From the NCBI GenBank assembly GCA_044892525.1, contig CM097885.1, positions 27,344,001-27,408,000 of the forward strand: a stretch of 64,000 nucleotides of DNA, written 5' to 3'. Position 1 is the first letter of the stretch; every line of letters starts with the position of its first letter. Positions 17,101-20,100 of the stretch are shown here, piece after piece. Source of the stretch: Schmidtea polychroa (taxonomy: Eukaryota). The translations under genes were made by a program, and so were the position numbers. The notes below the pieces were generated by a model, which saw nothing but the letters and a program-made list of their open reading frames with translations, ran no database searches and had not been told where the DNA came from.

Positions 17101-20100
17101 TATGTTTCAAAATCCCTTGACCCAAACATGTGGTCAACATTGTTTAGCTTGGTTATTGTACAAAATATTTGATGTTTAATAAAATTTGATGTTTAATAAA
17201 TGTATCCTTTCCTTTGTTGTTGTGATTATTATTATTATTATTATTATTATTATTATTATTATTATTATTATTATTATTAATATTATTATTAATATTATTA
17301 TTATTATTATTTTTATTATTATTAATATTATTATTAATATTATTATTAATATTATTATTAATATTATTATTAATATTATTATTATTTTGAAAAATATTAT
17401 TATTTCGAAAAATATTATTATTTTTAATTAATTTTATTATTATTCACATAAATATTATTAATTCAAGATAAAGACTACCTATGCCTGAAGCATGCACAGT
17501 GCAAGTTAACAAAGGCAGTCACATGTAATTTCTGAGTGATTTACATTACATACATGCATGTGTGTGATTGGTTGAGAGAGTAAAATATTCAGTGTATATG
17601 CGTGTGTGTCTATATTCTCATTGGCTGGGACAGGAAAATATTTATTCTCTTTATAAACATTGACAAATCTAAAATTTGTCACAATTATTTTAAAATTTTA
17701 AAATTTCTATTTCAAAATCAATTTCCAATGCAAAACAATAATAATCGAGTTTTGAGAGGTTTTTTGACTACCGGTAATTTTATTATATTATATTTTATTC
17801 TTCATTTTTTAGATGTGTTCGACTGGTATGAAGTGAACGAGAACGAATCGATTCTAAATGTGGATAAGATCTTCGGTAAATTTATTATTTTAATTTTTAT
17901 TAAATTAATTTTTTCATTTCAGAAAATGATTCAATTAGCGACGATGATGTCGTGTTTATTGGAGAAAGTAATGCCCCTAATAATGACAATGATAAGATCT
18001 TTGGTAAATTTATTATTTTAATTTTTATTAAATTAATTTTTCATTTTAGAAAATGTTTCAATTAGCGACGATGATGTCGTTTTTATTGGAGAAAGTAATG
18101 CCCCGGTTAATGATGTTGGGCAAAACAATGTTTTCAAAGAAAAAAGTAAATTTATTTTTTTTTAGTATTTTATTTTTAAATTTTTTTTTAGTGTTTAATG
18201 TTGACATGGATGCGGAAATCGATGTTTCTATTGCGGAGCTGGATAATGTCCTCGCTTCTGTTGAGGAGGACTTTGAAATCAATGTAACCAAGCCATAATT
18301 GTCAATACTCAATCGTCTCATCTCGGAGGAGAACATTGGATAGCAATATACGTGAAACCTGGTAATATATTCGTGTTCGATCCTATGGGTTTCTATTATC
18401 CTGCTTTGTTGATAACAAAACTGCAAACAATGGGGAAACCTATTGTGTATAATAAAACAATGTTTCAAAATCCCTTGACTCAAACATGTTGTCAACACTG
18501 TTTGGCGTGGTTGTTGTACAAAAAGTTTCATGTTTAATAAATGTTTAGTGTATGCTTTGTTGTTGTTATTTAATAAGAAAGACTTTTATTATTATTATTT
18601 GTTATTTAATAAGAAAGACTTTAATTTTATTATTATTTATTGTTATTATTAAGAATAATATTAATTATTTTTAATTAACTTATTACTTATCATAAAGCCA
18701 TCACATGCTCCGTGCATGTTAACAAAGAACTGACTAATAAAGACAGTCACATGGAAACAAGGCACGTGTAGATGCAATGTGATTGGCTGAGAGAGTAAAA
18801 TATTTAAGTTTCTATGTGTGTGTACCGAAATCTTATTGGCTGGGACAGGAAAATTTAAATCTCTTTATTAACATTTGCAATTTCCAAATTCGTCACAATT
18901 ATTTTAAAATTTTACAAAATTCAAAATTCTTATTTCAAAATAGAAGGACAAGAAAATAATATTCTGAGATGTATGATGGCTGGCAGCAATGGTAAAATAT
19001 TATTATTTTATTTTATTTATTTTTATATATTTATTTTATAGATGATTTGTGGTACGAAGTTACTCAAAATGAAGATGGATTTAATTTAAATTGTACATAT
19101 GGTAATTTTATTTTTATTTATTAATATTATTATTATTTAGACGTTATAATGGTGAGCGATGACGAAGATCCCATAATTATTAGCGACAATGACGATACAA
19201 TAGTCATTAGTGAGGATGATGATGATTTATCAAGTAATTTATTATTATTATTATTATTATTGTATTAAATTAAAAACCTTTTTTAGGACATAGTCAAATG
19301 ATTCCTAATCACATCGACAATGAGTTTTTCATCGAAAATGCGATGATAGAAAATACTCGTAAGTTTTTATTATTTTTATATGTAATTTTAAAAATGATTT
19401 AGAAGCTTCATATGTTTTGAATGATGCCCTATTCGGGATGCCCTCTATGAGGATGATGCTCCAATTTATGCTGCACCTATTGATGACCAGGAAACAATGC
19501 TAATTGATGCCCCCACTGCTATTGGGGAGGTAGCGGATTATGCCTCAACTTTTATTGGAGATGCCCCTATTCGGGATGCCCCTATTAGGGAGGTCTTTGG
19601 AAATATCCTCACTGAGGACGAAACAGACTCTGATTCAGAGTCTAAATGTTAGTTTTTTTATTTTTTTATTTCATGAATAATATCTTTATTAATCATAATT
19701 ATTTATAAATTATTTATAAACTTAAATTATAACTTTCTTTAAATTATTTTTTAAAAAAAAAATATTCTGTAATTTTTTGTAATTGATGATTAAAATTTAT
19801 ATGAAGAAAGTGAAGAAAATTTATATGAACAGATGATGAAAATTTATTAGAAAATTTATTTGAAAAATCCTGAACAAATTTATTTGAAAATCCTGAACAA
19901 ATTATATGAAATGATGAAAATTTATATGAAATGATGATGATGAAAATTTAAAACGATGAAAATGTAGAAGAAAATTTTGAAATTATTACAATATTCTTGA
20001 GAAAGTTATAATTTAAGTTTAGAAATAATAATAATAATAATAATAATTGACCCATAATTTCTACTAGTAGTTTGCAGACAGCATGCAACTACATCTCTCT

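What the first reader, a model, noticed from the sequence alone, without database searches (positions are those of the whole stretch)
17728..19647. Hidden spliced gene in Polintons built from symmetric short exons carrying tandem SUMO-interacting-like motifs
Seen: three divergent copies (17728-18298, 18940-19647, 62673-62027) always lie between the protease and pPolB genes, behind a conserved double-CCAAT/TATA-like region. Each has four host-sized GT-AG introns, all phase 1, with internal exons that are multiples of 3. The proteins are very acidic and repeat hydrophobic cores flanked by Ser/Asp runs (SDDDVVFI x2; VIMVSDDED, IIISDNDD, IVISEDDDD; SDDDNVVFL). In copies 1 and 3 the motif number grew by duplicating a whole exon plus intron; in copy 2 it grew within one exon. 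Established: (V/I)x(V/I)(V/I) plus acidic residues is the SIM consensus, SUMO is central to transposon and DNA-virus silencing, and Polinton core genes are usually annotated as intronless. Inference: a SUMO-binding decoy or adaptor with tunable valency, missed by ORF-based annotation.
Basis: partly seen in the sequence, partly recalled or inferred. Interest (0 to 1): 0.9.

Follow-up and report, generated by a model that had tools for sequence, protein, structure and literature searches.

The report
Spliced front end of Polinton polymerase
The hidden "gene" is real but is most likely the spliced, fast-changing front end of the DNA-copying enzyme of a virus-like jumping element, and it carries short motifs that may let the element grip the host's SUMO tagging system.

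Summary
The short phase-1 exons are real and protein-coding: 202 of 216 internal exons are multiples of 3 under an intron finder that ignores frame, and dN/dS is 0.19-0.37. But they are not a stand-alone gene. Each lineage has one more donor, a 0.4-2.1 kb intron, and an acceptor that completes the first cysteine of an uncharacterised Cys/His domain. That domain reads on into the terminal-protein, vOTU and polymerase domains of pPolB and has no start codon in front of it in 32 of 35 copies. Seven lineages in this genome share the layout. The exons are therefore very probably a spliced, hypervariable, swappable leader of the Polinton polymerase (about 0.85). SIM-like motifs lie ahead of the terminal protein in all seven lineages, in the leader or in the linker, and their number varies by duplication. 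SUMO binding is inferred from sequence only (about 0.5). A second motif (W-x-acidic-V) fits TFIIH-p62 or ATG8 binding. All three window copies are broken. A new variant of a known element type.

The parts
15551..16771 (+). 406-aa ORF, putative major capsid protein (identity inferred from position; no Pfam hit)
16767..17180 (+). adenain-like protease gene upstream of copy 1, broken in this copy
   Evidence: PF00770 on the element-2 copy
17567..17658 (+). promoter-like region of copy 1: ATTGG at 17567 and 17620, TATAAAC at 17652
17728..18286 (+). copy 1, family-A leader: exons 17728-17773, 17813-17875 (W-x-x-V motif), 17923-18003 and 18050-18145 (duplicated SIM-like exons), 18192-about 18286 (cut short by a junction into protease sequence)
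18287..18540 (+). 3' part of a second protease gene; marks the junction between a family-A and a family-B element
18782..18872 (+). promoter-like region of copy 2: ATTGG at 18782 and 18835, degenerate TATA-like box at 18866
18940..19647 (+). copy 2, family-B leader: exons 18940-18991, 19042-19101 (W-x-x-V), 19141-19233 (three SIM-like motifs), 19287-19358, 19403-19647; start codon lost and exon 5 frame-shifted in this copy
19648..20378 (+). predicted fifth intron (731 nt; GTTAGT...TAG; GA-rich repeats and AAT microsatellite inside)
20379..20590 (+). start of exon 6: uncharacterised Cys/His (likely zinc-binding) domain whose first Cys codon is split by intron 5
20591..23679 (+). rest of pPolB of element 1: low-complexity linker, terminal-protein domain (GSGW at 21132), vOTU region, polymerase; several breaks in this copy
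62759..62842 (-). promoter-like region of copy 3 (ATTGG at 62842 and 62791, TATAAAC at 62759)
62027..62673 (-). copy 3, family-A leader: exons 62673-62625, 62587-62525, 62477-62400, 62353-62267, 62221-62027; fifth donor at 62026
61189..62026 (-). 5' part of intron 5 of element 2; a deletion between AAT tracts near 61280-61190 has removed the Cys/His exon start
57948..61143 (-). pPolB of element 2 from the linker (two EVIVIS/N-type SIM-like motifs) onward; broken in this copy
63201..63650 (-). adenain-like protease of element 2
   Evidence: PF00770, E 6e-6

Best explanation
The exons are the 5' leader of the Polinton pPolB gene. A host-type promoter (two CCAAT boxes and a TATA-like box) behind the protease drives one pre-mRNA; three to five short phase-1 introns and one long one are removed; the product is a polyprotein: acidic leader - Cys/His domain - basic/low-complexity linker - terminal protein (TP) - vOTU protease - polymerase. 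[Shown in sequence: exons, coding constraint, splice signals, frame. Inferred: that the splice occurs, about 0.85.] Because every intron is phase 1, leader exons can be duplicated, lost or swapped between polymerase lineages without breaking the polymerase frame. [Shown.] The leader and linker are a docking tail of short linear motifs; the Val/Ile-core-plus-acidic motifs most likely bind host SUMO, with avidity set by motif number. [Inferred, about 0.5.] If vOTU cuts between TP and vOTU, as proposed for this protein class, the tail stays on TP, which is covalently joined to the DNA ends, and so brings SUMO-tagged host factors or SUMO-rich nuclear sites to the free linear genome during replication or integration. 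[Inferred from literature, about 0.3 overall.]
For: Coding: 202 of 216 internal exons are 3n while 227 introns split 88/53/86 over the three length classes (the finder ignores frame); dN/dS 0.29 and 0.19 pooled, 0.37 and 0.37 by events (p 1e-7, 0.005), against 1.0-2.2 off frame. Link to pPolB: fifth donor GT in 30 of 30 and 29 of 29 aligned copies; of 41 long stretches 35 hold the Cys/His exon, all 35 with YAG at the same offset, 34 completing a Cys codon, 21 reading open into TP, only 3 with an upstream in-frame ATG. Homologues from other sources carry a Cys at the split position (17 of 21 aligned, by eye) and several are fused to TP/pPolB sequence. TP: best structural match of the model is the Pol IV little finger, 4IR1, Z 8.2, rmsd 2.5, 92 aligned, the test used by bioRxiv 10.1101/2024.03.18.585575; best viral matches are an adintovirus C2H2-type protein and viral PolBs. 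vOTU-type Cys motif in 30 stretches. Swapping: lineages C and G share 89-98% of the Cys/His, linker, TP and vOTU parts but 26% of the leader; one copy has an A-type leader on a B/D-type polymerase. SIM: loose motif 11 vs 3.3 expected in 8 leaders and 9 vs 1.0 in 8 linkers; a tighter motif 17 vs 0.15 ahead of TP, in 7 of 7 lineages, and 1 vs 0.11 behind; the host has two SUMO genes; definition of SIM from PMC12751080.
Against: The tight motif was defined after seeing the sequences, so its odds are inflated, and lineages C and G are not independent. The loose motif is also enriched in folded pPolB parts (12 vs 5.2), reaches p<0.05 in only 2 of 8 leaders, and is only 6 vs 2.5 in 51 outside homologues. 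SIM-core columns are only slightly more constrained than the rest of family A (0.26 vs 0.40). Within family B, intron interiors are 95% identical, so kept GT/AG there says little; exon indels in family A are in frame in only 11 of 21 cases (noisy alignment, decayed copies). The Cys/His exon shows no purifying signal inside family B (0.79-0.83, few changes). Copies with broken exons 1-4 were dropped before dN/dS (16 of 30 and 19 of 29 distinct copies used). A conserved internal Met in the Cys/His domain could start a shorter pPolB. Leaders E, F and G carry no tight SIM-like motif, so the leader itself is not defined by SIMs.
Confidence: 0.55

Rival explanations
1. Same spliced polymerase leader, but its job is transcription or repair-factor recruitment: the acidic tail is an activation-domain-like string whose W-x-acidic-V motif binds the PH domain of TFIIH p62 (or, less likely, ATG8 as a LIR), with the Cys/His domain binding DNA or protein. 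The SIM-like cores are secondary.
For: WYEV in 41 of 59 modelled copies, WYQV in 11; W-x-x-V/I in 5 of 7 lineages, the most conserved part of the leader. XPC Trp133/Val136 and Rad4 Phe95/Val98 fill the two PH pockets, and a viral aromatic-X-acidic-V motif is cited (PMC10345426). The host has p62 PH domains and ATG8 genes. Some outside homologues carry C2H2 fingers ahead of the domain.
Against: Lineages E and F lack the Trp motif; 11 family-A copies have Gln at the acidic position and copy 3 has Leu for Trp. The motif never multiplies, whereas the SIM-like motifs do. It is not exclusive of the best explanation.
Confidence: 0.2
2. One reading: a separate small acidic protein (SUMO decoy or adaptor), made by retention of intron 5 or by termination inside it, alone or as an isoform beside the polymerase.
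For: In family B read-through of the fifth donor meets a stop at once, giving a neat short protein. The leader has its own promoter-like boxes. A RING gene lies behind pPolB in lineages A, C and G, which could pair with a SIM protein in trans.
Against: In family A read-through runs into a variable AT microsatellite with no conserved end. The pPolB frame has no upstream ATG in 32 of 35 copies and its first Cys needs the splice. As the only product this is unlikely; as a minor isoform it stays open.
Confidence: 0.12
3. The leader is a near-neutral acidic spacer whose only role is to supply a start codon and keep frame; the motifs are by-products of acidic, AT-biased, tandemly duplicating sequence.
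For: Leaders of different lineages are 14-42% identical and lineage E's is short and not acidic; single leaders often do not beat shuffles; tandem duplication inflates motif counts.
Against: dN/dS 0.19-0.37 over exons 1-4; motifs of the same type recur in unrelated positions, in basic or Asn-rich linkers where composition predicts almost none (lineage E 2 vs 0.02); conserved Trp motif.
Confidence: 0.13

Closest known systems
Polinton/Maverick (adintovirus) pPolB with N-terminal TP (D1) and vOTU (D2) domains (bioRxiv 10.1101/2024.03.18.585575; sections 5-8 read)
   Same: TP fold matching the Y-family little finger, Gly/Ser loop between the second helix and last strand, vOTU-type Cys and His motifs, polymerase behind.
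   Different: Here the gene is predicted to be spliced and has an acidic leader plus a Cys/His domain ahead of TP. That paper's main text has no occurrence of intron, splic-, zinc or SUMO. Intact vertebrate and nematode Maverick core genes are described as intronless (PMC8097293, 10.1101/2022.07.12.499685; passages).
Adenovirus E2B preterminal protein (pTP)
   Same: Homologous terminal protein whose start codon comes from a small upstream exon (9-nt exon in the HAdV-37 table, PMC2397415).
   Different: Adenovirus leader adds three residues; here three to six exons add 60-190 residues with motif arrays, and TP is fused to the polymerase.
Drosophila-associated adintovirus 2 'C2H2-type domain-containing protein' (A0A7D4VFN9)
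   Same: Best Foldseek match to the Cys/His-linker-TP-vOTU model (E 5.5e-10): a zinc-finger region ahead of TP-like sequence is already deposited for an adintovirus.
   Different: 14% identity, low TM-score; the match is not shown to cover the Cys/His domain; no splicing or SIMs reported in the passages read (PMC8363768).
Multi-SIM proteins: RNF4-type STUbLs, DAXX/PML-type SIMs, viral SIM proteins such as HSV-1 ICP0 and EBV BGLF4 (PMC12751080 passages; DAXX/PML motif wording recalled)
   Same: Val/Ile cores next to Ser and acidic runs, in both orientations, in tandem.
   Different: No RING in the same polypeptide; motifs sit on a replication polyprotein; binding untested.
TFIIH p62/Tfb1 PH-binding acidic strings (XPC, Rad4, Rift Valley fever virus NSs; PMC10345426 passages)
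   Same: Aromatic-x-acidic-Val inside an acidic stretch (exon 2).
   Different: Shorter acidic flank; absent from two lineages; binding untested.

Membership tests
Polinton/Maverick | protein-primed family B polymerase | tested here: met
   PF03175 on window 58305-59105, E 2.6e-9
Polinton/Maverick | adenain-like protease | tested here: met
   PF00770, E 6.3e-6
Polinton/Maverick | double jelly-roll major capsid protein | tested here: inconclusive
   406-aa conserved ORF in the expected place; no Pfam hit; not folded
Polinton/Maverick | retroviral-like integrase, packaging ATPase, terminal inverted repeats, 6-bp target duplication | not tested
   only a chromodomain-like fragment near 10100-10420 seen by eye
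Polinton/Maverick | intronless core genes (as usually described) | tested here: not met
   predicted introns in the pPolB 5' region of 7 of 7 lineages; descriptive trait, not a diagnostic one
TP-vOTU-pPolB polyprotein | D1 domain with little-finger/PAD fold | tested here: met
   Z 8.2, rmsd 2.5, 92 aligned to 4IR1; 9 of the top 11 rows are Y-family polymerases
TP-vOTU-pPolB polyprotein | Ser/Tyr linking residue near Gly between helix 2 and last strand | tested here: met
   GSGW/GSNW loop between H242-259 and E265-278 of the model; linkage itself not testable
TP-vOTU-pPolB polyprotein | vOTU domain with catalytic Cys and His | tested here: inconclusive
   Cys motif in 30 stretches, His motif in 21 of these by regex; domain was cut short in the model and got no fold match
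SUMO-interacting motif | four-residue core with at least three Val/Ile/Leu-type residues | tested here: met
SUMO-interacting motif | adjacent acidic or phosphorylatable residues | tested here: met
SUMO-interacting motif | exposed, unfolded context | tested here: inconclusive
   linker of one family-B copy has pLDDT under 50; the spliced leader could not be modelled
SUMO-interacting motif | physical binding to the SUMO groove | not testable with these tools
   needs an experiment
SUMO-targeted ubiquitin ligase (RNF4 type) | RING domain in the same chain as the SIM array | tested here: not met
   the RING is a separate ORF behind pPolB; the Cys/His domain has no RING hit
TFIIH p62 PH-binding acidic string | aromatic-x-acidic-Val in acidic context | tested here: met
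   41 of 59 modelled A/B copies and lineage C; not D-G
known zinc-finger families | profile or fold match of the Cys/His domain | tested here: inconclusive

The most novel reading that the evidence does not exclude
These Polintons build, by phase-1 exon shuffling, an exchangeable motif tail (poly-SIM, TFIIH-type string, new zinc-binding domain) on the terminal protein, so that host SUMO and transcription machinery are tethered covalently to the ends of the free viral genome: a tunable, genome-bound counter-silencing or localisation device hidden from ORF-based annotation and probably present in related elements of other animals.
Probability: 0.25. Interest if true: 0.85.

Novelty: new variant of a known kind. 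Interest (0 to 1): 0.62.

Why it matters
Polinton core genes are treated as intronless and annotated as ORFs, so their polymerases are probably being truncated at an internal Met: several database homologues start exactly there. A spliced leader supplies the true start, reveals a conserved unnamed Cys/His domain with 53 database matches, and marks the fastest-changing, swappable part of an element whose capsid-side genes are 92-98% identical between families A and B. That is where a host conflict would be expected. If the motifs bind SUMO, it gives a direct, peptide-level test of how these elements meet SUMO-dependent silencing or nuclear sorting, an open question for Polintons, and a link to the spliced terminal-protein gene of adenoviruses.

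Tried and rejected
RNA: no RNA holder listed among 12 runs; no reads were laid, so splicing remains untested by transcripts. Complex prediction of a flatworm SUMO with the 30-residue family-B exon 3: no verdict, score 0.05 against a mark of 0.34, untested for peptides. Cys/His domain: no Pfam family over cut-off, no usable Atlas hit, best VIA Z 2.4 and no Foldseek match at E<=0.001; this does not show a new fold. Searches for already-joined leader products among longer proteins found none (weak tests). Related loci outside this genome could not be obtained: three alignments were too variable and the viral-contig scan found no relative; so introns and SIMs upstream of outside homologues are judged from protein ends only. 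The Rad60-SLD search returned ubiquitin-like hits, not SUMO; one SUMO pattern found nothing. Rejected: GA-rich repeats in intron 5 as a coding exon (no conserved frame); family-B intron 4 as coding sequence (44 nt in many copies); a captured host gene (58 of 60 loci sit behind the protease); copy 1's stop codon as genuine. Literature: 'polinton'+'SUMO-interacting' and 'adintovirus'+'SUMO' gave 0 papers; four further searches on introns or splicing listed no title describing a spliced Polinton polymerase, but I read passages of only some; Kapitonov and Jurka 2006, Starrett 2021, Repbase entries and bioRxiv supplements were not seen and could hold such a description.

Full report
Setting. The window lies in a 781-Mb, AT-rich animal genome; its SUMO is closest to flatworm SUMOs, so a flatworm host is inferred. 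Two decayed Polinton-type elements are present, marked by an adenain protease and a pPolB.

Observation. Searching the genome gave 60 loci (30 of family A, like copies 1 and 3; 30 of family B, like copy 2; the three window copies included), from only 40 of 1451 and 40 of 1348 candidates scored. An intron finder that ignores frame modelled 59 of 60; 202 of 216 internal exons are 3n, intron lengths fall 88/53/86 over the three classes. On distinct copies with open exons 1-4 (16 of 30 and 19 of 29 used), dN/dS is 0.29 and 0.19 by pooled pairs and 0.37 in both by counted events, against 1.0-2.2 in shifted frames. Alignment-mapped GT/AG is kept in 28-30 of 30 family-B and 25-29 of 29 family-A copies, but family-B intron interiors are 95% identical too, so this within-family test is weak. 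The protease is upstream in 58 of 60 loci. The exons are real and coding.

The boundary is wrong. Every lineage's last short exon ends in a further donor. Downstream of copy 2, at 20379, a YAG acceptor opens a 69-codon Cys/His-rich stretch, and the base left at the donor plus the first two exon bases make a Cys codon. Protease-anchored searching revealed five more lineages (C-G) with three to five phase-1 leader exons. In 41 long stretches, 35 hold the Cys/His exon; all 35 have YAG at the same offset, 34 complete a Cys, 21 read open into the terminal-protein region, and 3 have an in-frame ATG upstream; the last intron is 367-2119 nt (the donor pattern was built from observed ends, but alignment gives GT in 30 of 30 and 29 of 29). 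In lineage E the exon heads open frames of up to about 1400 codons in many of the 150 places scored of 5100 candidates. Of 48 copies with the fifth donor located, 34 are open from ATG to it in phase 1. The window copies are broken: copy 1 is cut by a junction into a second protease gene, copy 2 has lost its start codon and has a frame-shift in exon 5, copy 3 has lost the Cys/His exon.

What the exon leads into. A profile of the Cys/His exon matched 53 proteins among 1.84 billion (two look spurious). In 17 of 21 aligned homologues a Cys stands where the split codon falls, often a few residues after the start Met, and several are fused to TP/pPolB-like sequence. Others begin at the domain's internal Met, as an ORF caller would if the true start were spliced on. 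The domain folds with confidence in AlphaFold (mean pLDDT 80); eight Cys/His positions suggest two zinc sites (inference). A model of domain-linker-TP-vOTU shows an unfolded linker and a five-stranded, two-helix domain whose best match is the Pol IV little finger, 4IR1 (Z 8.2); this is the published signature of the Polinton terminal protein, and that work argues for a vOTU cut between TP and vOTU (10.1101/2024.03.18.585575, sections 5-8). The best viral matches are an adintovirus C2H2-type protein and viral PolBs. Adenovirus pTP also takes its start from a small upstream exon (PMC2397415 table). Maverick core genes are described as intronless (PMC8097293; 10.1101/2022.07.12.499685; passages).

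Variation. Protease and capsid-side genes are mostly 92-98% identical across families A and B, while leaders of the seven lineages are 14-42% identical, against 35-67% for the Cys/His domain and 34-77% for TP outside the C-G pair. C and G share 89-98% of everything behind the leader but 26% of the leader; one copy joins an A leader to a B/D polymerase. Uniform phase 1 makes such swaps and exon duplications frame-safe. Family A has 1-3 and family B 1-4 tight motifs per copy.

Motifs. By the definition in PMC12751080 (passages) the motifs fit SIMs in both orientations. A loose pattern gave 11 vs 3.3 expected in 8 leaders, 9 vs 1.0 in 8 linkers, but also 12 vs 5.2 in folded pPolB parts and 6 vs 2.5 in 51 outside homologues; copy 3 alone is not significant. 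A tighter pattern, defined after inspection, gave 17 vs 0.15 ahead of TP, in 7 of 7 lineages, and 1 vs 0.11 behind. The motifs sit in the leader in A, B and D and in the linker in A, C, E, F and G, which reads as repeated gain ahead of TP rather than a property of the small exons. The host has two SUMO genes. Exon 2 holds a second motif, W-x-x-V (WYEV in 41 of 59 copies), matching the aromatic/Val pair of TFIIH p62 PH-binding strings (PMC10345426, passages) or a LIR (recalled).

Mechanism. Shown: coding exons, splice signals, frame continuity, TP identity, swapping. Inferred: the long splice (about 0.85); SUMO binding (about 0.5); retention of the tail on genome-linked TP after vOTU cleavage, bringing SUMO-tagged factors or SUMO-rich sites to the DNA ends (about 0.3). 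Rivals: an activation/TFIIH-recruiting tail (0.2), a neutral spacer (0.13), a separate SUMO decoy (0.12).

Novelty. The element is a Polinton-type virus-like transposon; the spliced, motif-bearing polymerase leader is a new variant. Two term searches joining these elements with SUMO found no paper; four on introns or splicing listed none describing it by title, with the founding papers and Repbase unseen. Earlier AI notes on this genome, read after I had reached this reading, report spliced pPolB leaders in sister families; they are not independent support and none mentions SUMO. Interest 0.62.

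Noticed in passing
window 57214-57714 (-): 166-aa RING (zf-C3HC4_3, E 1.2e-9) gene behind pPolB; related ORFs follow pPolB in lineages A, C and G. Could act with SIM-bearing parts in trans.
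   Followed up: partly
window 23650-23679 (+): pPolB of element 1 ends in an acidic tail closing with IILSD-stop, which resembles a C-terminal SIM (resemblance recalled).
   Followed up: no
window 29993-30124 (+): Decayed, isolated remnant of the Cys/His exon with stops.
   Followed up: no
L171-L173 (G000 C3): Three clustered, intronless TFIIH p62 PH-domain genes in the host; unusual copy number.
   Followed up: no
L181, L182: Two host SUMO genes with AT-rich introns of about 40-55 nt, the same style as the leader introns.
   Followed up: partly
   Followed up: no
window 9990-10015, 20066, 23865, 24045, 61310, 57720: A short palindromic motif recurs beside AAT microsatellites, inside intron 5 and over the RING start codon; role unknown.
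   Followed up: no
L154/L162 versus L158/L163; L029/L137: Leader and polymerase come from different lineages, with crossovers in intron 5 or the first codons of the Cys/His exon.
   Followed up: partly
P0002, P0022, P0030, P0034, P0044, P0049: Outside homologues carry two or three tandem Cys/His domains, some behind C2H2 fingers; many short ones end in intron-like read-through just after the domain.
   Followed up: partly
window 5457-6203 (+): IS630/Tc1-type DDE transposase ORF.
   Followed up: no
window 24250-25420 and 56500-56800: Tandem repeat arrays beyond the 3' ends of both elements.
   Followed up: no
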